A stretch of 64,000 nucleotides of DNA from the sequence record ON286972; one strand, given 5' to 3'. The notes under the pieces are model-generated. The model ran no database searches, was not told the origin of the DNA, and was given only the letters and a program-made list of their open reading frames with translations. The position numbers were made by a program, and so were the translations under genes. Of the stretch, positions 1-51,224 are shown piece after piece (within the stretch, counting starts at the first letter, position 1; the number at the start of each line of letters is the position of its first letter). The DNA comes from Escherichia phage A4.

Positions 1-1
1 C

Positions 2-33137: not shown

Positions 33138-33139
33138 AA

Positions 33140-37198: not shown

Positions 37199-37226
37199 AT
37201 GCCCGACTTTGTTCGGGCATCTTTTT
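37199..37226 (+). terminator. rho-independent terminator
   Basis: Perfect 8-bp stem ATGCCCGA-ctttgt-TCGGGCAT followed by CTTTTT. Confidence 0.7.
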
Positions 37227-37238: not shown

Positions 37239-37511
37239 ATGGATTATCGAGTACTGAATAGAACATATAAAGCTTTATACAAAACATATATTGAAAGTAA
37301 AGTACATAATCCTATCATTTATAAAAATCCAGTTTATATTATATGGAATGAATATTTTACAATGATTCAAAATTACTTTTACGCTAACGAAATCTTTATA
37401 GATGGTGAAATGCGTAAGCTAACACGCGTTGATAGTATAGGTGGTGAAATTGTGTTATTCTATACTGATTCTATTATTGGACAACAATCTATAAATTTAG
37501 AGATATTATAA
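37239..37511 (+). CDS. hypothetical small protein, YIGK-motif paralog family
   Basis: ~90-aa paralog; MDYRVLNRTYKALY. Confidence 0.5.
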   Translation: MDYRVLNRTYKALYKTYIESKVHNPIIYKNPVYIIWNEYFTMIQNYFYANEIFIDGEMRKLTRVDSIGGEIVLFYTDSIIGQQSINLEIL

Positions 37512-37777
37512 TGAATTATAAGGATTTACATTTCACCTATAAACTAACATTTTATATGTATCGTTACGCTGATAACAACTTCATGGATAATGCATTTTAT
37601 CATCGTTTGTGGAGTGATTATATAAATTCTTTACGTGAACATTTTATAGGTACTATAATTCAATACGAAGGTAAAACAGTAAAAATATTTCAAGTTGATA
37701 GTTACAACGGGGATCTATGCTTCAAGGGTAGAGATTCTAGTGATGGATTACATGAGATTTATATCTATGAATTATAA
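37511..37777 (+). CDS. hypothetical small protein, YIGK-motif paralog family
   Basis: MNYKDLHFTYKL..EHFIGTIIQYEGKTVKIFQVDS. Confidence 0.55.
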   Translation: MNYKDLHFTYKLTFYMYRYADNNFMDNAFYHRLWSDYINSLREHFIGTIIQYEGKTVKIFQVDSYNGDLCFKGRDSSDGLHEIYIYEL

Positions 37778-38042
37778 GGATTTACAATTCACGTACAAAA
37801 TTCTTCATGAACAATATGAACGTGGTGAAGGAATATTAACTTACGATGAACGAGATTTTTTTCTTACATTGTGGTGTGAATATTTGGCAATGATTAACGA
37901 GATTTTTGTTGATAAAGAATATATGATTGACGACATGACTGTACGTATTATCAGAATTAAAAGTTATAATGGAAGTCTTGTTGGAATTTACTATAACAAT
38001 GAAAAGGCGAAAAGCGGATTTGTTGATTTGGAGTACCTATGA
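37767..38042 (+). CDS. hypothetical small protein, YIGK-motif paralog family
   Basis: MNYKDLQFTYKIL; start adjusted to ATG 37767. Confidence 0.5.
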   Translation: MNYKDLQFTYKILHEQYERGEGILTYDERDFFLTLWCEYLAMINEIFVDKEYMIDDMTVRIIRIKSYNGSLVGIYYNNEKAKSGFVDLEYL

Positions 38043-38302
38043 ACTATAATGATTTACAATTCACGTATCAACTTTTATATGATGATATGAATAACGAACT
38101 AGGTTTCTATTATGAAGCACATAATAAAATATGGTCAAATTATCTATCTGAGATACAACATCATTTTATAGGACTTCCAATACGTAGAAATAATAAAAAC
38201 TATCGTTGTACTGATGTAGTAAGTCATAGAGGTAGGTTGCGTTTAGAATTCTACCGCAGAGACGGGGACTTCATTGGTATAAATTTACTGGATTTTAAAT
38301 GA
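38039..38302 (+). CDS. hypothetical small protein, YIGK-motif paralog family
   Basis: MNYNDLQFTYQLL..HHFIGLPI. Confidence 0.55.
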   Translation: MNYNDLQFTYQLLYDDMNNELGFYYEAHNKIWSNYLSEIQHHFIGLPIRRNNKNYRCTDVVSHRGRLRLEFYRRDGDFIGINLLDFK

Positions 38303-38586
38303 TGAAAAACAACTTAAAGGAAATACAAGTATTTTATAGATTCTTATACTTGTCATATGTAACAGATGAGTACTATGAAAGTGTATATTATTTTTTATGG
38401 CAACATTACCGTACTATAGTAAGAGATTTATATATAGGAAAATCTATCATATCCAATGGTGAAAAATGTACCTGTACTGATGTCGTTAGTTTTAATGGTT
38501 CTTTAACACTGTGTTTCATATGCGATAATAATAGTGGGTCATTTTCATTAAACGTATATCAGTTAGAAGGAATAAATTTTGAATAA
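38299..38586 (+). CDS. hypothetical small protein, YIGK-motif paralog family
   Basis: ..DLYIGKSIISNGEKCTCTDVVS. Confidence 0.55.
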   Translation: MMKNNLKEIQVFYRFLYLSYVTDEYYESVYYFLWQHYRTIVRDLYIGKSIISNGEKCTCTDVVSFNGSLTLCFICDNNSGSFSLNVYQLEGINFE

Positions 38587-38779
38587 GTGTCCATATTGTA
38601 ACAGTACTCAATTAGCTCGTTTCCGCTTAGATTCAGACTGGGCCACTGGTGCTGGGGATTTCTTTCCCATCAATGATGATGCGGAATACACTGAAGAACA
38701 GCACAAAGATTTTGATAAATCATGGCGACCAGACATTGAGTGCATTTATTGCCTTAATTGTGAGCGTGTACATGACTAA
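38579..38779 (+). CDS. zinc-ribbon protein
   Basis: Two CxxC pairs (CPYC..CLNC) in 66 aa. Confidence 0.5.
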   Translation: MNKCPYCNSTQLARFRLDSDWATGAGDFFPINDDAEYTEEQHKDFDKSWRPDIECIYCLNCERVHD

Positions 38780-39035
38780 AGCTGAACTAATAGTTCATAC
38801 ATATAAAATGATAGCCAGTACTGAGTTATCCTGTGGTGCAGATAATCCAGTACTGGACTATTTTATAGAATCTTTGAAAGAACATTATATTGGTAAATCA
38901 CTGATTCTTAATAATATTAATTTCACTGTAAAGGATGTAGCACCTGGAAAAAACGTACTAATAGTATGTGTTACTTCATCTGATAACCCAGTATACCCAA
39001 TAACAATAATTTTTGAGGTATTAGGTGATTTATGA
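38772..39035 (+). CDS. hypothetical small protein, YIGK-motif paralog family
   Basis: ..LKEHYIGKSLILNN; start adjusted to ATG 38772. Confidence 0.5.
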   Translation: MTKAELIVHTYKMIASTELSCGADNPVLDYFIESLKEHYIGKSLILNNINFTVKDVAPGKNVLIVCVTSSDNPVYPITIIFEVLGDL

Positions 39036-39322
39036 ATATCATTTTAATACAGAAAACATATGCTATATTGGTGAAAGATTATTCCATTACTTTCGATTCA
39101 CAAGAAAGTGCTCTACATAACCTATACAAAAACGTATCACAAGAATACAGAAATATGTTTTCTGACTTAGTAGTAGGAAGATATTTCAGTACTAGAAAAT
39201 ATCCAAAACTTCAAGTAGAAGATGTTTCTTTTTATTTCAATGGTCATATTACTATTCATAGTTTAGACCAAAATTCACCAACGTACTTAAACTTTTCATT
39301 CGATGAGGTAACCTTTTTATGA
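39032..39322 (+). CDS. hypothetical small protein, YIGK-like
   Basis: ..FSDLVVGRYFSTRKY. Confidence 0.45.
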   Translation: MNIILIQKTYAILVKDYSITFDSQESALHNLYKNVSQEYRNMFSDLVVGRYFSTRKYPKLQVEDVSFYFNGHITIHSLDQNSPTYLNFSFDEVTFL

Positions 39323-39501
39323 GAACATTATTTTTTATCTGGAGTCTTTTTTCTCTTGCAGTACTGACAGTATGTGGGATTTGTTTCTTATCGACAATGA
39401 ATGTCTGGTACATTAATTTACTATTCCCATTCGTAGGTGTAGGTTTAGGATTTACTTTACATAGTGTATGTAAGGATTTCAATGACAAATCAAACAAATG
39501 A
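39319..39501 (+). CDS. small membrane protein (two predicted TM helices)
   Basis: 60 aa with hydrophobic segments FFIWSLFSLAVLTVCGICFL and INLLFPFVGVGLGF. Confidence 0.45.
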   Translation: MRTLFFIWSLFSLAVLTVCGICFLSTMNVWYINLLFPFVGVGLGFTLHSVCKDFNDKSNK

Positions 39502-39766
39502 AGTACTTATTGCTGAAACAATGAAGATGATTTATAGTATTACTACAGCACAGAATATGCCCTATCCCATTAAGTCTTTATTGAGGACCGTGTATCTTGT
39601 GACTGTGCAGGAATACTATAAATCCAAGCACAAAAGCATTATTAGTGTTCATCGTGATTATGAAAGGATTCGTATTTTGTACTGGAACAAGAACCGAGTA
39701 CGTTCTGAATGTGACCTTGCGGACTTCAAATTAGAGAATCTTTATTGTTATAAAGCGGGACAGTAG
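39482..39766 (+). CDS. hypothetical small protein
   Basis: ATG 39482 with AGGA upstream; ~94 aa. Confidence 0.45.
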   Translation: MTNQTNEVLIAETMKMIYSITTAQNMPYPIKSLLRTVYLVTVQEYYKSKHKSIISVHRDYERIRILYWNKNRVRSECDLADFKLENLYCYKAGQ

Positions 39767-39824
39767 TATAAGTAGTGATATAATTGTTGGTATGGAATAA
39801 TAACTAACACAAGGAGCGTGTAGA

Positions 39825-40553: not shown

Positions 40554-40561
40554 GGTAAGTT

Positions 40562-40840
40562 ATGAATTTACAAAGAGATGTGTGGACATATGAATATCTT
40601 TTAGAACTTTATGGTGATATGTATATTAAAAATAAACCATACATAGACGATATAAGGGCTATGATAGATGATTTTTCTTCTGAGTTTATTCCACTTTATA
40701 CTAATAAAGAAGTTACACATAAATCAATGAATAAATCAGGTATCATTGATGAAATTGATTTTGATACACATGGTGTATATTTTTATATTATTTTCTCCAA
40801 TGATACTGTTGGTATATACACGTATAAAGAATTAAAATAA
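40562..40840 (+). CDS. hypothetical protein
   Basis: ORF-track ORF followed by terminator. Confidence 0.5.
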   Translation: MNLQRDVWTYEYLLELYGDMYIKNKPYIDDIRAMIDDFSSEFIPLYTNKEVTHKSMNKSGIIDEIDFDTHGVYFYIIFSNDTVGIYTYKELK

Positions 40841-40844
40841 GTAC

Positions 40845-40872
40845 AGGCCAGCATGGATTGCTGGTCTTTTTT
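40845..40872 (+). terminator. rho-independent terminator
   Basis: Stem GGCCAGCA-tggat-TGCTGGTC followed by T6. Confidence 0.65.
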
Positions 40873-40883
40873 GTAGGTACATT

Positions 40884-41183
40884 ATGGACAAAATACAATT
40901 AGTTAGTAGTACGATAACAATGCTCGCAGATGCTGCCAGATGGAGCAGTGGTGGTTCCGTTAGTACTATGCTCAGTATACTCACGCAATACACCTATACC
41001 TGCAATGCAATGTTATATGGCAAGGAAGTTGAAATTGATGATCCCTATGGAATTCCCATATCATATGACCGAGGTGTAATAAAAAGGGTTACTATGAGAC
41101 TAACATATCATCCATATTTTGTAGTAGAACTTCCTGATGGAAAATTAAGAGAATATGTTGCTAAAAGGTTAAAACTAAAATGA
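40884..41183 (+). CDS. hypothetical protein
   Basis: ORF-track ORF. Confidence 0.45.
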   Translation: MDKIQLVSSTITMLADAARWSSGGSVSTMLSILTQYTYTCNAMLYGKEVEIDDPYGIPISYDRGVIKRVTMRLTYHPYFVVELPDGKLREYVAKRLKLK

Positions 41184-41758
41184 ATATTGTAGAATTAAGT
41201 ACTAAGCTGATTACTATGCGTAACGAGTGGTACAATTGGTATTATAACGGTACTGACATGGATTTTTCAAAATATCCATTTATGGAATCAGGATGTGATT
41301 CAAGATACCGCTGGTTGAGTAAAGATGATTCTGGTTTACATATTCGAGTTGATGATAGTGGTCAGGGAATTATAAAAGATTTACTTCAAGTTGAAGAACT
41401 CGTCCATGATGAGTGGTGTGATAATGATCCATACCTAGGAAATATAATTTATGTAACTGAAGATGATTGTATATTCGTCATTCAGCGTCATGGTGATTCT
41501 ATGTTTTATATAGCAGACAGCAGTACACCTGAAGGTGCAGCATCAGATGGTCTTATTCCTAAGATTAATATATTAGATTTTGGCTTACCTGAGCACTTCC
41601 AGATGAGTACTCTATTCGATATTCCACCGTTTGAGTTCTTTGAAGAATTTAAATTGTACTACAGTGATCTTCAGAAATTGAGTACCGAGAGTCGTATTGA
41701 AATAACTGTCAGGTACATGGACGGGGCAAAATTAACCGACACGGGGATAGAATTTTGA
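41180..41758 (+). CDS. hypothetical protein, FQxS-motif paralog family (outlying member)
   Basis: Motif EHFQMSTLFDIPPFEF. Confidence 0.55.
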   Translation: MNIVELSTKLITMRNEWYNWYYNGTDMDFSKYPFMESGCDSRYRWLSKDDSGLHIRVDDSGQGIIKDLLQVEELVHDEWCDNDPYLGNIIYVTEDDCIFVIQRHGDSMFYIADSSTPEGAASDGLIPKINILDFGLPEHFQMSTLFDIPPFEFFEEFKLYYSDLQKLSTESRIEITVRYMDGAKLTDTGIEF

Positions 41759-42444
41759 TTAAAGATTTAGATAGAATTTTATATGTACTAAGGGGTGTAA
41801 TTACTTTACAACCACAGATTAACCGCATGGAGAGAGCCTTTGAATTAAAATCAAGAGAAACTCCATATTCACATATATCAAATGTAGTTGGATCATTCTG
41901 CTCTGAAGACTCTCCTTACGATATTTGTGTATGTGAAGTACAGCCCAGTAATGATCTTGGTTTTGCAATCTTCGATAAAAATCAAGTACTGGTCAGTATG
42001 TTTCAGTGTAATAATCCTTTCTGGAAAACATGCCTGTACCCTGATTGGGCTATGCTTGACCCTACGAATAGTAAGATTAAAGTATATGACTCTAAGAATG
42101 AAGAAGTTGTTATTGATTTAGATGAATCAATGACAGAGGAAGAACACTTCCAGCTTATGATGATGCGTGCAATGCCAGACTATGAAGCAATGATTAACAC
42201 CGTACAATACATTAAGGATACGATGAGATCATTGCGTACACATGAGTTTTGTCATCCAGTATCGTATGAACATTTGGATTTAGATTTCAGTACTATCAAG
42301 TTTAAAGATAGTGTTATTGAATATATCCAAGAGAACACTAAATTTGATTTTATTAGTACTATGATTAATAATCCTGATACAAATTTCAGGCATCAGTACA
42401 ATGAATCTTTGTCTGGTGGTCGAGATACCAGTTGGTGGAAATAA
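41755..42444 (+). CDS. hypothetical protein, FQxS-like (divergent)
   Basis: Motif EEHFQLMMMRAMPDYE; TTG start. Confidence 0.45.
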   Translation: MIKDLDRILYVLRGVITLQPQINRMERAFELKSRETPYSHISNVVGSFCSEDSPYDICVCEVQPSNDLGFAIFDKNQVLVSMFQCNNPFWKTCLYPDWAMLDPTNSKIKVYDSKNEEVVIDLDESMTEEEHFQLMMMRAMPDYEAMINTVQYIKDTMRSLRTHEFCHPVSYEHLDLDFSTIKFKDSVIEYIQENTKFDFISTMINNPDTNFRHQYNESLSGGRDTSWWK

Positions 42445-42445
42445 T

Positions 42446-42709
42446 ATGAATATCCAAGATAGATTGCAATTGTTGCACACACTTGAAGAAGCTGCTTTTG
42501 AACTTGTTAATAAAATTGCACAAGAACTCCCAAAAGGAACCAACGTTCGTGTTCGTGAAATGGATTATTTAACGGGAGAAATTGAAGAAAAAGTTCTAAC
42601 AGTGATCAAAGTAACATACTATGAATCAGAGTTATCAATTCAATGTAAGTCAGATAATGGTTACGTTTCCTACTATGGCACAGATGTAGATATAGAGGTA
42701 ATTAGATGA
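42446..42709 (+). CDS. hypothetical protein
   Basis: ATG 42446 just after upstream stop; 87 aa. Confidence 0.45.
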   Translation: MNIQDRLQLLHTLEEAAFELVNKIAQELPKGTNVRVREMDYLTGEIEEKVLTVIKVTYYESELSIQCKSDNGYVSYYGTDVDIEVIR

Positions 42710-43851
42710 GTAATTTACGAGAAATATACAATGATTTAATGGAACTATGTGAATCTAATGATGCATTTTTCTATATAGATCACACAAGCCCTGGTGGTGG
42801 TTTATACCGTGTATTCACCTATCGTCTGGCATCTTATACCGATTTCACAAATAAAAATGCACTAGAAACTCGTGGTTCTATGTGGGAAATCGATTCCAAC
42901 GGAATTATGATTCGTTGTGCAGCACGTACAATGAAAAAGTTCTTCAATGCATATGAAAACCCGTACACAATGTTCAGTACTGATACGACATGTGATGATA
43001 TTGCAGTTGTAATGCCTAAACTTGATGGTTCTATCATCAGCACATTCCGTGATAACGATGGTGAAATCCGTTGCAAATCACACACTTCGTTATCTTCTGA
43101 CCATGCTATTAACAGTACTCGACTTTTGAACGAGAACCAAAATCTCTATCAATACATTGATGAAGCAGACCGTTTGGGCTATACTGTGAATCTGGAATAC
43201 ACAAGCCCAGAGTATCGAATTGTGTTACCATATCAGGTGGAACAGTTATTTGTTCTTAACGTTCGTCATCGTATTAGTGGTGAGTTGTTATGCGGTAAAG
43301 CACTACGTGATAAGTTTCCATGCCTTTCACAGTACAGTACTAATATGACAGGTAATGACATTCATCATACATTCCCGATTATGCCTACATTTAAAGAGTC
43401 AATCGATAAAGTACGTTCTATGATTGACATTGAAGGTTTTGTGTGTATAATGAAAGATGGTACAATGTGCAAAATCAAAACTGACTGGTATTGCTCTTTG
43501 CATTTAACAAAAGATTCCATTCTTATTGATTCCCATTTATATGAAGCTGTACTGACTGGTGCAAGTGATGACTTAAAACAATTGTTCAGTACTGATACAT
43601 ATGCAATGGATAAGATATTAAGAATGGAACAATTGGTATTTTCGTGCTATAATGCTTTACAAGATGAGGTAGAAAGCTTCGTCCATGCATACAAGCACTT
43701 AGAGCGAAAGGAATTCGCTCAAAAGGTTCAGCAAGATTTACCTAATGTATTGAACCGACAAGGCTTGGCCTTTGCGTTGTACAATGGCAAAAGTGTCGAT
43801 TATAAAGAGACTTTACTAAAGTACTACAAAGATGTACTAAAGGATTTTTAG
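42706..43851 (+). CDS. rnlA: RNA ligase 1
   Basis: Collinear with T4 Rnl1 as recalled: N-terminal NDLMELCE, nucleotidyltransferase KxDG motif (KLDGS), EGFVCIMKDG..KIKTDWY, GASDDLK. Confidence 0.9.
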   Translation: MSNLREIYNDLMELCESNDAFFYIDHTSPGGGLYRVFTYRLASYTDFTNKNALETRGSMWEIDSNGIMIRCAARTMKKFFNAYENPYTMFSTDTTCDDIAVVMPKLDGSIISTFRDNDGEIRCKSHTSLSSDHAINSTRLLNENQNLYQYIDEADRLGYTVNLEYTSPEYRIVLPYQVEQLFVLNVRHRISGELLCGKALRDKFPCLSQYSTNMTGNDIHHTFPIMPTFKESIDKVRSMIDIEGFVCIMKDGTMCKIKTDWYCSLHLTKDSILIDSHLYEAVLTGASDDLKQLFSTDTYAMDKILRMEQLVFSCYNALQDEVESFVHAYKHLERKEFAQKVQQDLPNVLNRQGLAFALYNGKSVDYKETLLKYYKDVLKDF

Positions 43852-43880
43852 TACTAACTAGCCCAGCACAAGGAGAAGTG

Positions 43881-44135
43881 ATGGCTAAACCTAAGTATAA
43901 AAATGATGGTTCCCTTTCTCCTACTGAGTTCAGGAAAATACAACAAGAAATCGATGATTTACAGCACAAACGCTCAATGAAAGGTGTGAAGATTAGTAAG
44001 AAGCGAATCGAGAATACTTTTGGGTGTAGTAGTACTGAATATAAGAAGAAAAGGAAACCAAAGGATGTTAAGCCGAGAATACATGATGTAACTCGCTATA
44101 CATCGAAACGTGAAAATAAATTCGATCCACTATAA
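43881..44135 (+). CDS. hypothetical basic protein
   Basis: AGGAG RBS then ATG 43881; Lys/Arg-rich 84 aa. Confidence 0.5.
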   Translation: MAKPKYKNDGSLSPTEFRKIQQEIDDLQHKRSMKGVKISKKRIENTFGCSSTEYKKKRKPKDVKPRIHDVTRYTSKRENKFDPL

Positions 44136-44144
44136 GGAGTTCAT

Positions 44145-44381
44145 ATGAAAGTTGAAGTTCAGCATAGTATTGTTCAGGATATGTCAGTGGTTAAGTTTCT
44201 TTCTCTGAAAGATTACTTCAGATGTATCAAGTTCCTTGAAGAATCTCAATTACAGTGGACCCCCTTAAAGTACAGTTCATCCAATGACACTGCTAGTATT
44301 CGTTGTGATGAAGCTGTACTTGTAAAAATCTCCAAGCGATTTGGAGTTGGGAAATACAATGAAAAACAATCATTCAAGTGA
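44145..44381 (+). CDS. hypothetical protein
   Basis: ORF-track ORF with GGAG upstream. Confidence 0.45.
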   Translation: MKVEVQHSIVQDMSVVKFLSLKDYFRCIKFLEESQLQWTPLKYSSSNDTASIRCDEAVLVKISKRFGVGKYNEKQSFK

Positions 44382-44613
44382 TTTGTTATATTATAAAGTA
44401 CTATCAGAATGTTTGACGGATATATTGTACCGTGAGAGTAATACTCTACGTGCAAAATATATTAACAAAAGAGTACGTTATAAATCATCTTATGATGGGA
44501 TGAATGTTTATGGTAAAATCACTAATGTATATGTAGATGATGATTTTACATTGAATATCATTGTCGATAATTGTATTGATATCTCAATTGATGATATTAT
44601 TGAGGTAATCTAA
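44359..44613 (+). CDS. hypothetical small protein, YIGK-like
   Basis: ..RAKYINKRVRYKSS; start adjusted. Confidence 0.45.
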   Translation: MKNNHSSDLLYYKVLSECLTDILYRESNTLRAKYINKRVRYKSSYDGMNVYGKITNVYVDDDFTLNIIVDNCIDISIDDIIEVI

Positions 44614-44924
44614 TGAATAAAGCATTAAAAGAACTTAATAATTTAATGAATGCAGAAATTGAATTAACTAATACTATTTCTGAAATTGTTCATGATATGA
44701 TTACACAATACAAGAAATCACTCATTGGTAAGAAAGTTGAATGCTGGGATTACAACACTAAAACATGGTTCGAAACTATCATTAGTGATGTTAATGTTAA
44801 ATTTCATGTAGTTACTCATCACATTTCTGACGAGTGCTATGTAGAAGTAACTATAGGACACAACACGAGACATGAACGTTTTTCGTGGTACAATCTAAAG
44901 AATGTGAAATTTATTGAGGATTAA
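44613..44924 (+). CDS. hypothetical small protein, YIGK-motif paralog family
   Basis: ..YKKSLIGKKVECWDY. Confidence 0.5.
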   Translation: MNKALKELNNLMNAEIELTNTISEIVHDMITQYKKSLIGKKVECWDYNTKTWFETIISDVNVKFHVVTHHISDECYVEVTIGHNTRHERFSWYNLKNVKFIED

Positions 44925-45857
44925 ATGCCAACTATTACACTAACAGTTGGATTGCCAGGATGTGGTAAAACCACGTGGGCAGTGCAAGAAATTAAAAAAG
45001 CAAAGTCCAAGACTATCAACATCAATCGTGATGATATTCGAGAGTCTATGGCTGGGTCACATGATGCTTATAAATTCACTGATGCGAACGAGAAGTACGT
45101 AACTAATCAACAGTTCAGTGCAGCAAACGCAGCAGCAGCGAATGGATGGAACATTATTGTGTCCGATACGAACCTGAAACAAGGTTTTCGTGATGAATGG
45201 AAACGTTGGGCTAAAGATAATGGCTACGACTACAAAGAAAAGAACTTCTACGAAGATTTTGTACCGAATGAAGACCGTGGTGCAGATGTTCATGAATTCT
45301 TTAAGATTAAGGAATTCGTGAAGCTCTGTAAGAAACGCAACCTTCTTCGTGTGCGTTCAGTACAAGATGAAATCATTGACACTATGGCAGATACGTACTA
45401 TTATAGTAAGGCGATGCACATTGGTTACTATGGTAATGCACGTGAAGCTGCTATCATTGTTGATATCGACGGTACTCTTGCTCATAAGTGGGGACGTAAC
45501 CCGTTTGATGAAAGTACTGTCCTTCAGGATACACCAGATGAAGAAGTAATTCTGTCTGTCATTGCTGAGGCTGTTTTCCATAAGCGTAAGGTAATCGTCA
45601 TGAGTGGGCGTACTGAAGGGTGTCGTGCTGATACTGAACAGTGGCTTAAGAATTGGGGCATTCCCTACGATGTATTGTTAATGCGAGCTATCGATGATAA
45701 ACGTCCTGATGATGTTGTCAAATTCGAGTTGTATATGAATAACGTTGTTAATCATTACGATGTTAAGAAAGTATTTGATGACAGGGCCGCCGTTGTATTC
45801 ATGTGGCGTAAGCTACTAGGCTTGAAAGTATTTCAGGTGGAACCTGGACTATTTTGA
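44925..45857 (+). CDS. pseT: polynucleotide 5'-kinase/3'-phosphatase
   Basis: Walker A GLPGCGKTTWA, INRDD kinase motif, phosphatase DxDGT motif (VDIDGTLA), C-terminal KVFQVEPGLF collinear with T4 Pnk as recalled. Confidence 0.9.
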   Translation: MPTITLTVGLPGCGKTTWAVQEIKKAKSKTININRDDIRESMAGSHDAYKFTDANEKYVTNQQFSAANAAAANGWNIIVSDTNLKQGFRDEWKRWAKDNGYDYKEKNFYEDFVPNEDRGADVHEFFKIKEFVKLCKKRNLLRVRSVQDEIIDTMADTYYYSKAMHIGYYGNAREAAIIVDIDGTLAHKWGRNPFDESTVLQDTPDEEVILSVIAEAVFHKRKVIVMSGRTEGCRADTEQWLKNWGIPYDVLLMRAIDDKRPDDVVKFELYMNNVVNHYDVKKVFDDRAAVVFMWRKLLGLKVFQVEPGLF

Positions 45858-45865
45858 TTATTACA

Positions 45866-45895
45866 AAGGGATCAGTACTGATCCCTTTTCTTTTA
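45866..45895 (+). terminator. rho-independent terminator
   Basis: Palindrome AAAGGGATCAGT/ACTGATCCCTTT followed by a T-run. Confidence 0.6.
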
Positions 45896-45909
45896 ATTTA
45901 GGTGATATA

Positions 45910-46170
45910 ATGGATAATAGTTATGATGTACATTTCAAACAATGCCAGTTGGTTTTACACTCCCTAATGGAAGAGTTGCGAATCAAGTACATAGGCAAAA
46001 TTGCTACATGTTTATCAACTGGAAGACGTGGGCAAATTGTAGAGATTTATTATTCTCCACTTAGTGATGAAATTAAAATAAAAGCTAAAATATTCCTAAC
46101 TGGATCTAACAATTTCTTGGGTGAACATATGGTAAAAATTATCTCTGAATTATCGATAACGGATGAATAA
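45910..46170 (+). CDS. hypothetical small protein, YIGK-motif paralog family
   Basis: ..LRIKYIGKIATCLSTGRRGQIVEIYY. Confidence 0.5.
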   Translation: MDNSYDVHFKQCQLVLHSLMEELRIKYIGKIATCLSTGRRGQIVEIYYSPLSDEIKIKAKIFLTGSNNFLGEHMVKIISELSITDE

Positions 46171-46172
46171 AC

Positions 46173-46439
46173 ATGAATATTAATATAGATTTCCAATTTG
46201 TTAATTCACATATTCAAGTACTGAAAAATTTAGTAAAGCAACTATCAGAAAAATATAAAGATACATATGTTAAATGTGTTTATGATACAAGTGACTGGGA
46301 ACGCATTATTAAAATTGATTCAGTATATCTTGATACTAACAATAATATAGTTGTATCTGGCGTTGATATGTATGGGCATAGATACCAATTCACAACGCGA
46401 GCAACAATAACTACAGTGGATGGATATGAATACGAATGA
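46173..46439 (+). CDS. hypothetical small protein, YIGK-like
   Basis: ..LSEKYKDTYVKCVYD. Confidence 0.45.
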   Translation: MNINIDFQFVNSHIQVLKNLVKQLSEKYKDTYVKCVYDTSDWERIIKIDSVYLDTNNNIVVSGVDMYGHRYQFTTRATITTVDGYEYE

Positions 46440-46725
46440 ATTCCAAGCATTATTGAAAACATTATATCTTCTTAAAGAAGAATCTCTTGCAATGTATAAT
46501 GAAAAACAATACAAGTTTGAAGAACAACTCATTCATTTTCATGATGAATATCTTGCCTTTTTGAATAAAAAATACTCAAATGTTCAGTGCAAATATCGAG
46601 GTAGTGATGTTATTATTACCGAAATAGAATCAAGTACTTACGGATATCCATACCTTTGTTGCAAATATATCCCAAGTGATATAACATTTCGCTCAAGAAT
46701 ATATTCGAGGTTTATTTTTTCATGA
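46426..46725 (+). CDS. hypothetical small protein, YIGK-like
   Basis: ..FLNKKYSNVQCKYRGSDVIITEIE; start adjusted. Confidence 0.45.
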   Translation: MNTNEFQALLKTLYLLKEESLAMYNEKQYKFEEQLIHFHDEYLAFLNKKYSNVQCKYRGSDVIITEIESSTYGYPYLCCKYIPSDITFRSRIYSRFIFS

Positions 46726-47003
46726 ATAATGATTCATTGAAGTTTTTTTATTATCATTATCGTATTTTACGCAGTTTATATTTTTCAGAATCCGATGAAA
46801 GATTACTAACATCATTATCAGTACTGATGGATAATTACGAGAACGAATTGTCTAAATTGGTTTTTGGTGTCAATGTTCTAGATGATACCGATTTAACATG
46901 GACAATTATTGAAGTGGCGACCTGGAATGGTAATATTTTGTACAGGTGCGAACGAGCAGGTTTTTTATGGGATGCCACATATGACGAAATTAGAATTGTA
47001 TGA
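46722..47003 (+). CDS. hypothetical small protein, YIGK-like
   Basis: ..LSKLVFGVNVLDD. Confidence 0.45.
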   Translation: MNNDSLKFFYYHYRILRSLYFSESDERLLTSLSVLMDNYENELSKLVFGVNVLDDTDLTWTIIEVATWNGNILYRCERAGFLWDATYDEIRIV

Positions 47004-47280
47004 CAGGCAAGTGAAATTGATAAGAGATACTCGTCGTTTCTTTCATACTCAATTAGTAGATCCATGTTATGATATTTCCGATTTCCTTGAAACCTATCTC
47101 CTTGATCTAACTACACCACTGCTTAAAAAATACGTAGGCACAAAAGCTATATATCTTGGAAGAGAAGTTGAAATTACCAACATATCATATTCTTATGGGG
47201 CATACATGTATACGGCAAAATCTGATAATGGACAAAGATATTATGCAATACGATCAAGAGAACTTACGATTATTGGATAG
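46981..47280 (+). CDS. hypothetical small protein, YIGK-like
   Basis: ..LLKKYVGTKAIYLGREVEITN; start adjusted. Confidence 0.45.
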   Translation: MTKLELYDRQVKLIRDTRRFFHTQLVDPCYDISDFLETYLLDLTTPLLKKYVGTKAIYLGREVEITNISYSYGAYMYTAKSDNGQRYYAIRSRELTIIG

Positions 47281-47572
47281 GCATCTTGCTATTCTTATCG
47301 ACCTTGTGATGGAAAGTGATGTAAAAATTTTTGAAAGTAGATTTCTTGAGGATTATAAAACTGAATTGCAAGAACTGTACAAAGGTAAAAAAGTATTACT
47401 TAGTACTGGTGACTATGGTAAAATTGAGTACGTGTATTATGAATGGAAAAAGGTTATATATTTTATAAAAACCAAAATAAAATACCAAAATAAAACAAGA
47501 ACCTATAAAGCATATTACGATTCAAATGAGATAGAGATTATATATGACCAACACGTTAATAACAAAAAGTGA
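47243..47572 (+). CDS. hypothetical small protein, YIGK-like
   Basis: ..LQELYKGKKVLLSTGDYGKIEY; start adjusted. Confidence 0.45.
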   Translation: MQYDQENLRLLDRHLAILIDLVMESDVKIFESRFLEDYKTELQELYKGKKVLLSTGDYGKIEYVYYEWKKVIYFIKTKIKYQNKTRTYKAYYDSNEIEIIYDQHVNNKK

Positions 47573-47867
47573 ATTAGATTATTTGAATTATATAAACAGA
47601 TACTTTCTGATTCTATATAATATACTTCTTGAAGAACAATGCACTAAATCAAACCATCAGTTATATAACTATATTAACTGTATAATTAGTGAAATATATG
47701 AATCATTGGAAAAGAGATTTAAGTACAGAACTATTAAGTGCGAAGATGATATTGTATATATTCATGGTGTTTTTGGTACAGGATATGGAATATTCGTTGA
47801 TTATAAAATACACCCATTTGATCCGTACATAGAAAATAGTATGTACATAGAAGAGATTGAACTATGA
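47544..47867 (+). CDS. hypothetical small protein, YIGK-like
   Basis: ..LEKRFKYRTIKCEDD. Confidence 0.45.
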   Translation: MTNTLITKSELDYLNYINRYFLILYNILLEEQCTKSNHQLYNYINCIISEIYESLEKRFKYRTIKCEDDIVYIHGVFGTGYGIFVDYKIHPFDPYIENSMYIEEIEL

Positions 47868-48181
47868 CACAAGAAGAATATAATAAATTAATAATGTACG
47901 AGAATCATTTTAATTATTGTCTGAAATGGTTATTGTACATTGATAACGTTGAGATGGATATGTACAGAAAAGAGGTGAATAAACGTGTTAAAGATTTCTA
48001 TTACGAATTGACTGATCTTTTTTATAATAATGTAGTATATGAAGCAAATACCAGTCGTGATTATGACCTTTATATCAAGCAAATATGGGGTACTGACTAC
48101 GGTCTGATGATTGATTGCAGTACTGGTCCTAATATAGACAGACCCAGTACTACATTGTATCTGGATGAGATTTTCATATGA
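47864..48181 (+). CDS. hypothetical small protein (array member)
   Basis: ORF in array, ATGA overlap. Confidence 0.45.
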   Translation: MTQEEYNKLIMYENHFNYCLKWLLYIDNVEMDMYRKEVNKRVKDFYYELTDLFYNNVVYEANTSRDYDLYIKQIWGTDYGLMIDCSTGPNIDRPSTTLYLDEIFI

Positions 48182-48480
48182 ATGAACTATTACTTTGTCA
48201 TAAAACATACATTATGCTATTCAGAACGTGCCATGATATGCGAATTGAAGGTATACTAGACTACCCAACTATGATGATTAACTTCAGGGTGTTAATGGAT
48301 TCATATTCACAATCTGTCATTGATGCATTTGAAGGTAGAGAAATAAAGTTCAAAAATGCCAGGACAAATAATGAGCTATGTGATACAATTAAATCAGTGG
48401 GGATTTCGGTTCCAAATGTGTACGTAATCCCATTGATGTACGGAAGAGTAGTATCCACTAACGAAATTATTAGTATATGA
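48178..48480 (+). CDS. hypothetical small protein (array member)
   Basis: ORF in array. Confidence 0.45.
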   Translation: MNELLLCHKTYIMLFRTCHDMRIEGILDYPTMMINFRVLMDSYSQSVIDAFEGREIKFKNARTNNELCDTIKSVGISVPNVYVIPLMYGRVVSTNEIISI

Positions 48481-48776
48481 TTAAAATATTATATGAAGCA
48501 GAAGAAACATATAAACTTCTGTGGGAAACTTTTATTTTTGACAAATACTATAATAGAACTGAATGGTTAGAGGTAAGTAAAATATATCTTCAAATTTTAA
48601 ATGATTATTTTTGTCCGTTCGTTGCTGAATGTAAAAATAATCCAATTGAAGAAATTAATATAATCGAAATAGTAGATGGGTTTGGTGCGTGGTTGATATA
48701 CCAAGACAACTATCACTTTTCTAATTATATCGAAGATATCGGTAAAATAATTGTAATTAAAGGAGTCATACTATGA
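48477..48776 (+). CDS. hypothetical small protein (array member)
   Basis: ORF in array. Confidence 0.45.
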   Translation: MIKILYEAEETYKLLWETFIFDKYYNRTEWLEVSKIYLQILNDYFCPFVAECKNNPIEEINIIEIVDGFGAWLIYQDNYHFSNYIEDIGKIIVIKGVIL

Positions 48777-49378
48777 TTTATGCACTATACGTACTATACG
48801 TACTTGGTCTGGTTATTGGTTGGTTTTTGGCAAAATCTTACAACCGTAATGCACTGGCATACACAGTATTTGGTATTATTTTTACGCCAGTACTAGAACT
48901 AGGTTTACTCATTATTATGGGTCGCCGTGACATGACACCAGTCATTGACGATAATCGTGATAAAGCAGTACATGATGTACCCGTTTTTGAAGGATATACG
49001 CCAACTTTAACAGTTGATGACGTTTACATTGATGGTGCTGAAGAAGTTAAATCAGTTCAGGAAGAAGTTGAAGAAGTTCCAGTTAAAGAAGAACCACAAC
49101 CAAAAGCACCAACAACTAAAACAAAAGCAAAAACTTCTAAGAAAACGAAAGGTCGCAAGACTAGCACTAAAAATACCAAAAAAACCAGTACAACTCGCAA
49201 AAGCACTAAAACTGATAAGGAAGCATCTTCCAGTACTGATGATGGTACAAGCACTGTTCTACTGACAGCAGCAACAACTGCCGCAATTATCAGTACTTCA
49301 TCCTATAGCGACTCATCTTCCTCTTATGATAGTGGCTCTTGTGATAGTTCAAGCTCAAGTTCAGGAAGCTGTGATTAA
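48773..49378 (+). CDS. membrane-anchored low-complexity protein (acidic, K/T-rich and S/C-rich segments)
   Basis: Two N-terminal hydrophobic helices, then EEVKSVQEEVEEVPVKEEP, TKTKAKTSKKTKGRKTSTK, and SSSYDSGSCDSSSSSSGSCD. Confidence 0.5.
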   Translation: MIYALYVLYVLGLVIGWFLAKSYNRNALAYTVFGIIFTPVLELGLLIIMGRRDMTPVIDDNRDKAVHDVPVFEGYTPTLTVDDVYIDGAEEVKSVQEEVEEVPVKEEPQPKAPTTKTKAKTSKKTKGRKTSTKNTKKTSTTRKSTKTDKEASSSTDDGTSTVLLTAATTAAIISTSSYSDSSSSYDSGSCDSSSSSSGSCD

Positions 49379-49722
49379 TGGTTCCGTTATCATCTGAACT
49401 AAGGTACTTCGAATCTCTCCTTGATCTTCAATCAGAATTCGTTAGTGCCTTAAAAAATAAATTAATAGGCAAAAAAGTAAAATTCACTCAAGAGTATATT
49501 GACCACATCAATAAGGCTAAGGAGGATGAAGTAGATTCTGACTGGATTTATTGTGATGATGAAGCTTCTCATATCAACGAAAATACAGTTATGTTTATTA
49601 CTTTGTTGCGAGTAAAGAATTCATCAATCTATGTTGATGTGGAATATGAAAATCCAAAAAGTTCTGAATGGTACGGATTCACTTACCGTTTAGATCGTTT
49701 AGAACTAATAGAAGAGGAATAA
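49378..49722 (+). CDS. hypothetical small protein, YIGK-motif paralog family
   Basis: ..LKNKLIGKKVKFTQEY. Confidence 0.5.
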   Translation: MVPLSSELRYFESLLDLQSEFVSALKNKLIGKKVKFTQEYIDHINKAKEDEVDSDWIYCDDEASHINENTVMFITLLRVKNSSIYVDVEYENPKSSEWYGFTYRLDRLELIEEE

Positions 49723-49965
49723 ATGATTTTATTTTTTGCTTTGTATGGTGTAGGAGTACTGAGTACATTTTTGAGTACTTTTCTTATCATCAATTGGGGT
49801 TCTTTTAAAGATACCCCTACCACAATGATTAATATTAGTACCTGCTCTATGTTATCAGTACTGTGGCCTGTGTCGTTGGTGTATCTTTTCATTTCAATCT
49901 GTAAAGATTTTTACGATACACTAACAAAATTCAAGAAGAAGAAACATGACAAAGACGGAAATTGA
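49723..49965 (+). CDS. small membrane protein
   Basis: 80 aa, two or three hydrophobic helices, basic C-terminus. Confidence 0.45.
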   Translation: MILFFALYGVGVLSTFLSTFLIINWGSFKDTPTTMINISTCSMLSVLWPVSLVYLFISICKDFYDTLTKFKKKKHDKDGN

Positions 49966-50200
49966 ACAGTTAAAGATGTTACAATCGTTATCTGATGATT
50001 TTGTCCAACGTGCTAAGCACAAATATATTGGTCAAGAAATTCTTCTTAAACACTCCAGAGGTTGGCAAAAAATATGCATAAGAGATATGGGAACATATCA
50101 TGGTGATGTGCGATATTACGTAGATTGCTATGTTAATGACCAAATTGCCAATACTCAAGTTGTCACCTATGATAAAATTATATGGATTAAAGAACAATGA
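49946..50200 (+). CDS. hypothetical small protein, YIGK-motif paralog family
   Basis: ..RAKHKYIGQEILLKH. Confidence 0.5.
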   Translation: MTKTEIEQLKMLQSLSDDFVQRAKHKYIGQEILLKHSRGWQKICIRDMGTYHGDVRYYVDCYVNDQIANTQVVTYDKIIWIKEQ

Positions 50201-50940
50201 AACATTTCTTAGAAGTAACAGTTCCTGATGAAAAAGATTTGTATATAGTAGGAGACATTCACGGTAATGCAAAACTATGGGAACATACCAAGAAAGAATT
50301 TGGTATTACTCCTGAAGATTATGTATTCAGTTTAGGCGATTTAATTGACAGAGGTGAGCAAAGTGCTCACCTTTTGTTTGAGTTTTTATTCGCTGAGAAT
50401 CGATATATGATCATGGGCAATCATGAATCGATGTGTATTGATTCTGCAACTCATCGTGACTGGTATCATTGCTGGACACAGAATGGGGGCGATAAGTTCC
50501 TGGAAGAAGTTGGTGTATCAGGAGTGGAATTCTTCCGTCAGTACTTGGACCAGCTACCTATGATTATCCAAATCAATCACAGAGGACTCAAGATTGGTCT
50601 TGTACATGCAGGTGTAGATCTGAAGTACAATGACTGGAATAAGTTCATTACTGGGACAAAATCAATGTCCAGTGATACAATTGAGTCATGCCTATGGGAC
50701 AGAAAGACATTTGATTTCTGTAAAGCCAACAACGTCTTTAATGCATCACGTATTACCAACGTAGATTATGTACTTAGTGGGCATACTGCCGTGTTTGATC
50801 CCCTCATTTATGGTAACCGTATCTGGATTGACAGTCAGTTTCTTACTGGTGATTTGACTATTGCTACCCCACAAGGTGGTAAGATGCGTTATTTGCGTAA
50901 AGAAAAAGACGAATATTCATTTAGTCGATTCAAAAGGTAA
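50197..50940 (+). CDS. Ser/Thr protein phosphatase-like metallophosphoesterase
   Basis: GDIHG, GDLIDRG and GNHE calcineurin-like motifs. Confidence 0.75.
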   Translation: MKHFLEVTVPDEKDLYIVGDIHGNAKLWEHTKKEFGITPEDYVFSLGDLIDRGEQSAHLLFEFLFAENRYMIMGNHESMCIDSATHRDWYHCWTQNGGDKFLEEVGVSGVEFFRQYLDQLPMIIQINHRGLKIGLVHAGVDLKYNDWNKFITGTKSMSSDTIESCLWDRKTFDFCKANNVFNASRITNVDYVLSGHTAVFDPLIYGNRIWIDSQFLTGDLTIATPQGGKMRYLRKEKDEYSFSRFKR

Positions 50941-50945
50941 TTATT

Positions 50946-51224
50946 ATGCATGACATGATTGATAGTGCATTAACCGAATTTAACTTTTTTAAAAAATCAC
51001 TCGATGCAATAATCAATGATACCAACCAACAAATGAAAGACCATTTAAGTGATAAATTGGTTGGTCGTTGGGTTGAGCTACCATATATAGATGGAACTAC
51101 TGTTGGTGTGATTCATAGAATTGTAACAATTCATGAAGTGAAGGTGTATGTTGAAATTCTGGTTGACAATGAAACTAACAAATGTTTTGTACAATTAAGT
51201 ACTGAAGATTTAACTTTTTTATAA
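50946..51224 (+). CDS. hypothetical small protein, YIGK-like
   Basis: ..LSDKLVGRWVELPYIDG. Confidence 0.45.
   Translation: MHDMIDSALTEFNFFKKSLDAIINDTNQQMKDHLSDKLVGRWVELPYIDGTTVGVIHRIVTIHEVKVYVEILVDNETNKCFVQLSTEDLTFL

What the first reader, a model, noticed from the sequence alone, without database searches (positions are those of the whole stretch)
37239..51224. Second expanded family: about 23 small (~90 aa) paralogs with a '(Y/F)(I/V)GK' motif in two clusters
Clusters at 37.2-39.3 kb and 44.3-51.2 kb encode small proteins with an N-terminal helix (MNYKDLQFTYKLL-like in the first cluster), then h(Y/F)(I/V)G(K/T) and a beta-rich C-terminus. Examples are HHFIGLPI, LYIGKSII, KYIGKIAT, KLIGKKVK and KYIGQEIL. 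The second cluster is interleaved with conserved enzyme genes (rnlA, pseT, a phosphatase). The fold and function are unknown to me.
Basis: seen in the sequence. Interest (0 to 1): 0.6.

Follow-up and report, generated by a model that had tools for sequence, protein, structure and literature searches.

The report
Hypervariable small-protein family, jumbo phage
A giant E. coli phage carries about two dozen very divergent copies of one small, previously unrecognised protein (a helix packed on a tiny beta-barrel); related phages swap these copies like cassettes, which suggests a toolkit for binding host or defence proteins, though the function is untested.

Summary
The window comes from a 121Q/PBECO4-like (Asteriusvirus) jumbo phage. 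Between 37.2 and 51.2 kb, 21 + strand genes of 84-114 aa belong securely to one superfamily. Three more are probable members and two are possible.

Pairwise identity is only about 17%. Membership rests on leave-one-out HMMs, which beat all 36 control proteins and at least 1314 of 1320 shuffles. It also rests on profile-profile comparison of the two clusters (89-91% probability, E about 1e-6).

AlphaFold2 models (pLDDT 90 and 86) show one or two N-terminal helices, the (Y/F)(I/V)GK turn, and an SH3-like beta-barrel. There is no Pfam or NCBIfam match, and PHROGs splits the set across about 20 unknown-function families.

The family is confined to this phage clade. RaK2 has 16 copies in the same slots; GAP32 and fENko-Kae01 have none.

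Nucleotide homology with relatives breaks exactly at family-gene borders. Slot partners are 27-43% identical, against 74-97% for backbone genes. Shared alleles are younger than the backbone (dS 0.06-0.20) and under purifying selection.

The proteins are soluble, mostly acidic, absent from the phAPEC6 virion list, and lack conserved polar residues. The best guess is a recombining repertoire of binding proteins for host take-over or counter-defence. That function is inferred, not shown.

The parts
37239..37511 (+). Family member, cluster 1 (90 aa)
   Evidence: phmmer cluster; leave-one-out (LOO) HMM 13.9 bits, 0/36 controls and 0/1320 decoys reach it; phrog_32291
37511..37777 (+). Family member, cluster 1 (88 aa); the protein modelled as model 1
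   Evidence: AF2 pLDDT 90.5: H3-18, H24-45, E49-52, E55-65, E68-75, E80-84. An HMM built from cluster 2 only scores it 19.9 bits, 0/1320 decoys
37767..38042 (+). Family member, cluster 1 (91 aa; ATG at 37767 chosen)
   Evidence: phmmer cluster; LOO 11.8 bits
38039..38302 (+). Family member, cluster 1 (87 aa; FIGL motif)
   Evidence: LOO 23.1 bits
38299..38586 (+). Family member, cluster 1 (95 aa; YIGK motif); allele shared with 121Q gp426
   Evidence: LOO 8.6 bits, above all 36 controls, 6/1320 decoys reach it; 96% aa identity to the 121Q allele, dS 0.059, dN/dS 0.30
38772..39035 (+). Family member, cluster 1 (87 aa; YIGK motif)
   Evidence: LOO 18.5 bits; 92% aa identity to 121Q, dS 0.14
39032..39322 (+). 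Family member, cluster 1 (96 aa; VVGR motif)
   Evidence: cluster-1 HMM E = 2.4e-27; LOO 19.5 bits; dS 0.084 versus 121Q
39482..39766 (+). Possible, very divergent member (94 aa, basic)
   Evidence: hhalign 23% probability versus the cluster-1 profile over 73 columns, controls all below 1.5%. Model 1 weakly matches the BFVD model of its 121Q ortholog gp431 (A0A097EY16), TM 0.45. Fails the LOO HMM at 2.2 bits
40562..40840 (+). Family member lying between the two clusters (92 aa; YTNK motif)
   Evidence: LOO 23.6 bits, 0 controls and 0 decoys reach it; slot partner in 121Q is only 33% identical
40884..41183 (+). Probable member (99 aa; LYGK motif)
   Evidence: hhalign 84% probability, E = 7e-6, 75 columns versus the cluster-2 profile; LOO 9.5 bits, 1/1320 decoys reach it
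42446..42709 (+). Possible, very divergent member (87 aa)
   Evidence: hhalign 14-18% probability versus family profiles, controls below 1.5%; cluster-2-only HMM 7.6 bits; fails LOO at 3.5 bits
44359..44613 (+). Family member, cluster 2 (84 aa; YINK motif)
   Evidence: LOO 11.0 bits, 1/1320 decoys reach it; hhalign 74% probability with 49946; nucleotide homology to 121Q stops at 44362
44613..44924 (+). Family member, cluster 2 (103 aa; LIGK motif)
   Evidence: LOO 16.0 bits; nucleotide homology to 121Q resumes at 44924, the pseT start
45910..46170 (+). Family member, cluster 2 (86 aa; YIGK motif)
   Evidence: LOO 12.2 bits, 1/1320 decoys reach it
46173..46439 (+). Family member, cluster 2 (88 aa)
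   Evidence: LOO 24.1 bits; linked to 49946 through orthologs
46426..46725 (+). Family member, cluster 2 (99 aa); no counterpart in 121Q or Turkey5
   Evidence: LOO 25.2 bits; cluster-1-only HMM 8.9 bits; no BLASTP partner in either locus
46722..47003 (+). Family member, cluster 2 (93 aa; VFGV motif); absent from all 50,697 phage records searched
   Evidence: LOO 14.2 bits; cluster-1-only HMM 14.6 bits, 0/1320 decoys; tblastn finds no match
46981..47280 (+). Family member, cluster 2 (99 aa; start uncertain, 46972 or 46981; YVGT motif)
   Evidence: LOO 10.7 bits, 0 decoys reach it
47243..47572 (+). Family member, cluster 2 (109 aa; start 47228 or 47243; YKGK motif)
   Evidence: LOO 16.5 bits
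47544..47867 (+). Probable divergent member (107 aa); paralog of 47864
   Evidence: Paired with 47864 by phmmer and hhalign 96%. 60% probability, E = 8e-5 versus the cluster-1-only profile. Fails LOO when both genes of the pair are withheld, 3.4 bits
47864..48181 (+). Probable divergent member (105 aa); paralog of 47544
   Evidence: Pair evidence as for 47544. On its own it is weak: 12% probability and LOO 0.6 bits
48178..48480 (+). Family member, cluster 2 (100 aa; FEGR motif); no counterpart in 121Q or Turkey5
   Evidence: LOO 19.0 bits; no BLASTP partner
48477..48776 (+). Family member, cluster 2 (99 aa)
   Evidence: LOO 10.9 bits, 0 decoys reach it; cluster-1-only HMM 10.9 bits
49378..49722 (+). 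Family member, cluster 2 (114 aa; LIGK motif, with an insertion in the beta part)
   Evidence: LOO 11.9 bits, 1/1320 decoys reach it
49946..50200 (+). Family member, cluster 2 hub (84 aa; YIGQ motif); the protein modelled as model 2
   Evidence: LOO 16.4 bits. AF2 pLDDT 86.3: H3-27, E31-36, E39-51, E54-63, E66-73. Its top BFVD hit is the cluster-1 protein 121Q gp426
50946..51224 (+). Family member, cluster 2 (92 aa; LVGR motif)
   Evidence: LOO 11.8 bits, 0 decoys reach it; nucleotide homology with Turkey5 breaks at 50953 and resumes at 51213
42706..43851 (+). Backbone gene, not a member: RNA ligase RnlA
   Evidence: Pfam RNA_lig_T4_1 + T4_Rnl1_C on the corresponding gene of L005; 83% aa identity to 121Q
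44925..45857 (+). Backbone gene, not a member: polynucleotide kinase/phosphatase PseT
   Evidence: AAA_33 + HAD_PNKP; 90% aa identity to 121Q
50197..50940 (+). Backbone gene, not a member: Ser/Thr metallophosphatase
   Evidence: Metallophos; 76% aa identity to 121Q

Best explanation
SHOWN. The span holds one ancient, tandemly expanded superfamily of small proteins (84-114 aa). They are soluble and mostly acidic, and their phAPEC6 counterparts are missing from the virion protein list.

Each protein has one or two N-terminal helices. These end in the (Y/F)(I/V)-G-K turn and pack against a C-terminal SH3-like beta-barrel: four strands, a 3-10 turn, then a last hydrophobic strand or residue. Only the hydrophobic core and two turn glycines are conserved.

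The family is detected only in RaK2-like jumbo phages (Asteriusvirus and Alcyoneusvirus), where it fills the same gaps between conserved genes (acidic protein, 242-aa protein, RnlA, PseT, phosphatase).

These slots behave as exchangeable cassettes. Homology with related phages stops and restarts at the gene borders. Slot partners are either about 30-40% identical or nearly identical and younger than the backbone. Shared alleles are under purifying selection.

INFERRED. The proteins are a diversified repertoire of binding modules made during infection. Each uses its variable surface on the constant scaffold to bind, and probably block, a different host factor, host defence protein or competitor-phage protein. 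Selection from variable targets, together with recombination between co-infecting relatives through the conserved flanking genes, keeps the repertoire diverse.
For: Family membership.

Scaffold versus surface: the conserved columns are hydrophobic core plus G47 and G67, with no conserved polar or catalytic residue.

Soluble and acidic: no 19-residue window has hydropathy above 1.4, and pI is 4.4-6.9 for 18 of the 21 secure members.

Not virion-associated: none of phAPEC6 gp361c-gp389c appears in the part of the virion mass-spectrometry table read here (PMC7247149).

Distribution: 24 hits at E <= 1e-3 among 1.84 billion representative proteins. 16 copies in the 121Q locus, 14 in phAPEC6, 11 in Turkey5, 16 in RaK2, and none in the syntenic loci of GAP32 and fENko-Kae01.

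Cassette behaviour: nucleotide homology breaks at 37255-38213, 40569-40845, 40931-41162, 44362-44924, 45896-50173 and 50953-51213, with almost constant offsets. Slot partners are 27-43% identical against 74-97% for most conserved backbone genes. Shared alleles have dS 0.06-0.20 against 0.24-2.0 for backbone genes, and dN/dS 0.15-0.34. The block 38313-39312 is 89-98% identical to 121Q at the nucleotide level, mostly 93-98%, next to about 80-86% backbone.

Analogy: in other large T4-like phages, variable regions and recombination hot spots are enriched in uncharacterised and anti-defence genes (PMC12028318).
Against: - No experimental or homology-based link to any function. There is no hit in Pfam, NCBIfam or PADLOC, nor by sequence to any PDB chain.
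- The binder and anti-defence role is argued only from size, charge, conservation pattern, non-virion status and evolutionary behaviour. Other accessory functions would fit these too.
- Timing of expression is unknown. The sigma-70 promoter scan was at chance level.
- Model 2 was built with cluster-1 sequences in its alignment, so the shared fold is not fully independent evidence.
- dS estimates come from genes of under 300 nt and are noisy.
- Whether 47544/47864, 40884, 39482 and 42446 belong is not settled.
Confidence: 0.45

Rival explanations
1. The proteins are small nucleic-acid-binding factors. SH3-like, Tudor, Sm and KOW-type barrels often bind RNA or DNA. They could act with the neighbouring RNA-repair enzymes (RnlA, PseT, phosphatase, hydrolase, DNA ligase), or act as transcription or RNA regulators.
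For: The beta part resembles SH3 and Tudor barrels. The genes are interleaved with RNA and DNA end-healing and sealing enzymes.
Against: 18 of the 21 secure members have pI below 7, and most carry a net negative charge. No basic or aromatic surface residue is conserved across the family. GAP32 and fENko-Kae01 keep the same enzymes without the family, so the enzymes do not need it.
Confidence: 0.12
2. The genes serve phage-against-phage conflict (superinfection exclusion, or interference with co-infecting relatives) rather than action on the host. The cassette diversity would then reflect competition among Asteriusvirus lineages.
For: Discrete allele classes and recent exchange between lineages imply frequent co-infection. 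The family is confined to one phage clade.
Against: No direct evidence. The proteins have no membrane segments, unlike many exclusion proteins. This reading overlaps the main explanation, with the same binder mechanism and a different target.
Confidence: 0.15
3. The ORFs are evolutionary filler: duplicated, drifting ORFans with no selected function, kept because jumbo capsids tolerate extra DNA.
For: Sequence divergence is extreme (median 17% identity). Content differs between genomes. The family is absent from GAP32 and fENko-Kae01.
Against: dN/dS is 0.15-0.34 in all five allele pairs that can be measured. Slot partners keep their ORF length to within a few codons despite about 35% identity. 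The core residues and fold are retained across two genera. Reading frames are intact in every genome examined.
Confidence: 0.08
4. The ORFs are unrelated and share only a chance motif and a common helix-then-strand composition.
For: Most pairs have no significant pairwise similarity. PHROGs places the set in about 20 different families.
Against: Leave-one-out HMM scores beat all controls and nearly all decoys. Cross-cluster HMMs and profile-profile comparison give E about 1e-6. An HMM trained only on window sequences finds the non-training members in 121Q, Turkey5, phAPEC6 and RaK2. All hits there are real + strand ORFs, and the controls GAP32 and fENko-Kae01 give none.
Confidence: 0.03
5. The proteins are virion internal proteins or assembly chaperones.
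For: They are small, abundant paralogs in a large myovirus. T4 internal proteins are likewise small and variable.
Against: None of the phAPEC6 counterparts (gp361c-gp389c) appears among the virion proteins in the part of the mass-spectrometry table read here; 62 were found in all (PMC7247149). The locus lies among nucleic-acid enzymes, far from structural genes.
Confidence: 0.04

Closest known systems
Small accessory ORFs in the 'hyperplastic regions' of T4-type phages (own knowledge: Comeau et al. 2007; early host-take-over proteins), and the variable regions and anti-defence islands of Schizotequatroviruses (PMC12028318)
   Same: Runs of about 10-kDa genes of unknown function sit between conserved enzyme genes (here rnlA and pseT, as in T4). 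Content varies between close relatives. Recombination is concentrated in these regions, which are enriched in uncharacterised and anti-defence genes.
   Different: Here most of the small genes in the region belong to one superfamily with one fold. They occupy fixed slots whose length is kept while the sequence is replaced. No shared sequence with any T4 protein was detected.
PeSL (promoter-early stem-loop) mobile regulatory cassettes that shuffle small genes in T4-type phages (own knowledge: Arbiol et al. 2010)
   Same: Cassette-like replacement of small genes within a conserved backbone.
   Different: There are no repeated promoter or stem-loop elements between the family genes. The genes abut or overlap, and the only repeats found are the paralogous N-terminal coding sequences. 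The breakpoints coincide with the ends of conserved flanking genes.
Phage anti-defence protein families (own knowledge: for example anti-CRISPRs, Ocr, Tad and Acb proteins)
   Same: Small, mostly acidic, non-structural proteins that are highly variable between related phages, clustered in accessory loci, and lack enzymatic motifs.
   Different: No sequence or structural match to any known anti-defence protein was found, and no anti-defence HMM library was available to search. Inhibition of a defence system is untested. About 24 paralogs of one fold in a single genome is unusual for known anti-defence families.
SH3-like small beta-barrel proteins (SH3, Tudor, DUF1653, UBE2O-like SH3-C)
PHROGs phrog_32291, phrog_21004 and about 20 further unknown-function PHROGs
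   Same: These are the ortholog groups into which members of this family had already been sorted.
   Different: PHROGs treats them as separate families. The present analysis joins them into one superfamily.

Membership tests
   21 genes score 8.6-25 bits, above all 36 controls and at least 1314 of 1320 shuffles. 47544 and 47864 fail when both are withheld. 43881, 44145, 36019 and 36305 fail.
   hhalign of cluster 1 versus cluster 2: 88.9% probability, E = 2.4e-6; 91%, E = 1e-6 with 23 versus 34 sequences. Cross-cluster HMMs reach 19.9 and 14.6 bits with 0/1320 decoys.
   Models 1 and 2 have the same element order, with the GK motif at the junction of the last helix and strand 1. Cross-hits to independent BFVD models. 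Caveat: model 2's alignment contained cluster-1 sequences.
SH3-like small beta-barrel fold | Five-stranded barrel with a 3-10 turn before the last strand, superposable on SH3 or Tudor domains | tested here: inconclusive
Any curated protein family (Pfam, NCBIfam, PADLOC, PDB sequences) | Significant profile match | tested here: not met
   No family member matches any of them. The only hits belong to the Zn-finger protein 51234-51461, which is not a member. The best PDB sequence hit has E = 0.011 and is short.
PeSL-type mobile cassettes of T4-type phages | Repeated promoter plus stem-loop element flanking each shuffled gene | tested here: not met
   No repeated intergenic element. The genes overlap or abut. 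Terminator-like hairpins occur only at 37199, 40845 and 45865.
Targets of a diversity-generating retroelement | Template/variable repeat pair, with variability confined to one part of the gene | tested here: not met
   No long near-identical repeats in the region. Divergence spans the whole proteins. The presence of a reverse transcriptase was not examined.
Anti-defence or host-take-over binder proteins | Small, non-enzymatic, non-virion proteins that vary between close relatives | tested here: met
   These features are necessary but not specific.
Anti-defence or host-take-over binder proteins | Binds and inhibits a host or defence protein | not testable with these tools
   Needs interaction and infection assays.
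Virion or internal proteins | Detected in purified particles | tested here: not met
   phAPEC6 gp361c-gp389c are absent from the part of the virion mass-spectrometry table read here (PMC7247149). This rests on a relative, not on this phage.

The most novel reading that the evidence does not exclude
The arrays are a phage-encoded 'binder library'. A single helix-plus-barrel scaffold has diversified into dozens of specificities. Alleles are traded between co-infecting jumbo phages by recombination through the conserved flanking genes. In effect this would be a combinatorial counter-defence repertoire, comparable in logic to the variable surface or immune repertoires of cellular organisms. It would then be a rich source of new inhibitors of bacterial defence systems or core host machinery.
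Probability: 0.2. Interest if true: 0.8.

Novelty: new member of a known kind. Interest (0 to 1): 0.5.

Why it matters
About 83% of the genes in these 350-kb coliphages have no known function (PMC7247149). Several of these phages are being characterised for therapy.

This analysis collapses about two dozen 'hypothetical proteins' per genome, and about 20 PHROG families, into one superfamily with a defined fold. It also shows that they are the fastest-turning-over, recombination-exchanged part of an otherwise conserved locus. That makes them priority candidates in a search for host-range determinants, anti-defence proteins or host-shut-off factors.

The family offers a natural series of variants on one small scaffold for mapping binding specificity. 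If the proteins are inert, the pattern is still a clear example of slot-wise cassette replacement in jumbo-phage evolution.

Tried and rejected
- **Pairwise search alone.** phmmer linked only 6 + 2 genes, so it could not decide the question.
- **Word-indexed database searches.** They returned only close orthologs, 22 and 9 proteins, and added little diversity.
- **Exhaustive HMMER search.** Over 1.84 billion representative proteins it gave 24 hits. One (P0044) is a spurious tandem-repeat translation.
- **PDB sequence search.** Only insignificant eS7 hits.
- **Pfam, NCBIfam and PADLOC.** Nothing for any member.
- **Sigma-70 promoter scan.** At chance level, 99 sites against 95.8 expected, so expression timing could not be inferred.
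- **Links to the window's other paralog families.** The roughly 160-aa family at 1.6-24 kb and the 6-member family at 0-15 kb are unrelated, with hhalign probability below 1%.
- **PeSL-like or DGR-like repeats.** None found.
- **Genes considered and rejected as members.** 36019, 36305, 38579, 39319, 43881, 44145, 49723 and 51234.
- **Literature.** Searches found no description of this family.

Full report
**Source and context.** The 13,986-nt span matches 35 Escherichia and Salmonella jumbo phages of the 121Q/PBECO4 group (Asteriusvirus). Identity is about 86%, but the match covers only 44-49% of the span. Gene order is collinear with 121Q genes 419-460, Turkey5 and phAPEC6, where every small gene is annotated 'hypothetical protein'. 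Independent gene calls on two metagenomic contigs that carry the same array give the same small genes. All genes in the region are on the + strand. I fixed the starts by ribosome-binding site and overlap.

- All-against-all hhalign of ortholog-group profiles shows candidate-candidate scores shifted above candidate-control scores. Mann-Whitney p is 7e-25 between clusters and 1e-15 within cluster 2, while control-control pairs show no shift.
- In a leave-one-out test, 21 genes score 8.6-25 bits against an HMM of the others. Each beats all 36 control small proteins of the window and at least 1314 of 1320 shuffled decoys. 43881, 44145, 36019, 36305, 39482 and 42446 do not.
- An HMM of cluster 2 alone scores cluster-1 gene 37511 at 19.9 bits. 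An HMM of cluster 1 alone scores 46722 at 14.6 bits. In both cases 0 of 1320 decoys reach the score.
- Profile-profile comparison of the clusters gives 88.9% probability, E = 2.4e-6, over 84 columns. With 23 and 34 sequences it gives 91%, E = 1e-6, and aligns the last helix, the Y-x-G-K turn and the strands.
- With these deeper profiles, 40884 reaches 84%. 47544 reaches 60% against a cluster-1 profile that contains none of its orthologs. 39482 and 42446 reach 14-23%, and 13 controls stay below 1.5%.

The tally is therefore 21 secure, 3 probable and 2 possible members. The window-trained HMM finds no other ORF in any of the six frames of the 64-kb window. The family is unrelated to the window's two other paralog families.

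**Fold.** AlphaFold2 on 37511, using cluster-1 sequences only, gives pLDDT 90.5 and pTM 0.77. The elements are helices 3-18 and 24-45, then strands 49-52, 55-65, 68-75 and 80-84, and a short turn.

The model of 49946, built from a mixed alignment, gives pLDDT 86.3. It has one helix (3-27), then strands 31-36, 39-51, 54-63 and 66-73, a 3-10 turn and a last short strand. The two differ only in the presence of the first helix.

Against BFVD, model 1 hits cluster-1 orthologs and RaK2 H6X4R2 (TM 0.70). Model 2's best hit is 121Q A0A097EY12 (TM 0.63-0.67). That protein is 121Q gp426, the ortholog of cluster-1 gene 38299. Model 2 also hits PBECO4 L7TK39 (103 aa, TM 0.67) and RaK2 proteins, with partial hits to DUF1653 and SH3-C models.

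In a 57-sequence alignment the conserved columns are hydrophobic core positions plus two glycines, the G of the motif and a hairpin G. No polar residue is conserved. This pattern fits a scaffold rather than an enzyme.

**Known families.** There is no Pfam, NCBIfam or PADLOC match, and no PDB sequence match, for any member. PHROGs scatters the set over about 20 unknown-function families. Literature searches found no description of the family.

**Distribution.** Word-indexed searches of 5.8 billion proteins found 22 and 9 relatives, all on coliphage-like contigs. Exhaustive HMMER over 1.84 billion representatives found 24 at E <= 1e-3.

In small-database searches the family HMM finds 16 members in the 121Q locus, 14 in phAPEC6, 11 in Turkey5 and 9 on a 5.7-kb metagenomic contig. 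It finds 16 in the syntenic locus of Klebsiella phage RaK2, all of them + strand ORFs in the same inter-enzyme slots and nearly all annotated genes. It finds none in the syntenic loci of GAP32 and fENko-Kae01, which serve as matched negative controls.

**Evolutionary behaviour (new here).** Nucleotide homology between the window and 121Q or Turkey5 stops and restarts at family-gene borders: 37255-38213, 40569-40845, 40931-41162, 44362-44924 (pseT starts at 44925), 45896-50173 (the phosphatase starts at 50197) and 50953-51213. The alignment offsets stay almost constant, so slot lengths are preserved.
- Slot partners are 27-43% identical in protein, against 74-97% for RnlA, PseT, the phosphatase, 43881 and 44145. 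Five members have no counterpart at all.
- The same pattern holds between 121Q and Turkey5. There, the two genes upstream of pseT are 90-94% identical to each other but only 32-39% identical to the window's. Alleles therefore fall into discrete classes.
- Where alleles are shared they are younger than the backbone. dS is 0.06-0.20 against 0.24-2.0, and dN/dS is 0.15-0.34 against 0.06-0.22.
- The block 38313-39312 is 89-98% identical to 121Q in 100-nt windows, mostly 93-98%. It lies next to about 80-86% backbone on one side and a block with no detectable homology on the other.
- One member (46722) has no tblastn match in 50,697 phage records.

This is the signature of recombinational cassette exchange combined with purifying selection on each allele. 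No PeSL-like or DGR-like repeats flank the genes.

**Properties bearing on function.** No member has a membrane-like segment. 18 of the 21 secure members have pI below 7. None of the phAPEC6 counterparts (gp361c-gp389c) appears in the part of that phage's virion mass-spectrometry table read here; 62 virion proteins were found in all (PMC7247149). Terminator-like hairpins lie just before the first array (37199-37220), after 40562 (40845-40867) and after pseT (45865-45888). The promoter scan was uninformative.

**Interpretation.** Shown: there is one superfamily with a helix-plus-SH3-like-barrel scaffold, tandem expansion, restriction to one clade, slot-wise hypervariability with recent exchange, and purifying selection.

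Inferred, at roughly 45% confidence for the whole statement: these are intracellular binding modules that each target a different host, defence or rival-phage protein. The argument is by analogy with T4-type accessory early genes and with the variable, anti-defence-enriched regions of other large phages (PMC12028318).

The rivals are listed with their tests: nucleic-acid binding, inter-phage exclusion, neutral filler, chance similarity and virion proteins. Chance similarity is effectively excluded.

**Verdict.** The family is a previously unrecognised member of a known kind of phage feature, namely expanded, fast-turning-over accessory gene families. It has a defined fold and an unusually clean cassette pattern. 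Its function is unknown and needs experiment.

Noticed in passing
window 6870-63758 (whole window); also loci L001-L010: The palindrome AGTACT occurs 175 times against 16.8 +/- 4.3 expected from dinucleotide shuffles. CAGTACTG occurs 53 times against 0.68 expected. The sites fall in all three reading frames and in intergenic DNA, at about 3 per kb, and the same density holds in 121Q, Turkey5, phAPEC6 and fENko-Kae01. There are none in window 1-6869. One copy forms the centre of the terminator-like hairpin at 45865-45888. This looks like a DNA-level signal such as a modification, binding or regulatory site. No report was found in the literature.
   Followed up: partly
window 33083-33776: A 694-nt stretch has no ORF in an otherwise tightly packed + strand gene run. 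121Q has a gap at the same position. There is no Rfam family at gathering score and no tRNA or tmRNA.
   Followed up: partly
window 36576-37193: An extremely acidic 205-aa protein (pI 4.1, net charge -32, C-terminal poly-Asp tail) lies directly upstream of the first array. It is conserved across the clade: 75% identity in 121Q and 48% in fENko-Kae01. It could be a DNA mimic or a chaperone-like protein; this was not examined.
   Followed up: no
window 1624-23769 and 11-15275: The window holds two other expanded paralog families: 15 genes of about 150-210 aa, and 6 genes of about 87-143 aa. Neither is related to the family studied here, with hhalign probability below 1%.
   Followed up: partly
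window 41755-42444, 24249-24851, 58571-59092: A three-member paralog family of about 170-230 aa proteins, with orthologs in 121Q, Turkey5 and fENko-Kae01.
   Followed up: no
window 48773-49378: A 201-aa protein inside the second array has an N-terminal membrane segment, a Lys/Thr-rich middle and a C-terminal Ser-rich low-complexity tail (…SSSSSGSCD). It is only 32-39% identical to its 121Q and Turkey5 counterparts, over part of its length.
   Followed up: no
window 38579-38779 and 51234-51461: Two small four-cysteine zinc-ribbon proteins. The first sits inside the first array and is 85% identical to its Turkey5 counterpart. The second matches DnaJ_CXXCXGXG and anti-TRAP profiles and is conserved throughout the clade.
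   Followed up: partly
window 46000-48000: This is the lowest G+C stretch of the window (0.291 against about 0.33). It coincides with the members that have no counterpart in 121Q or Turkey5 (46426-47572).
   Followed up: no
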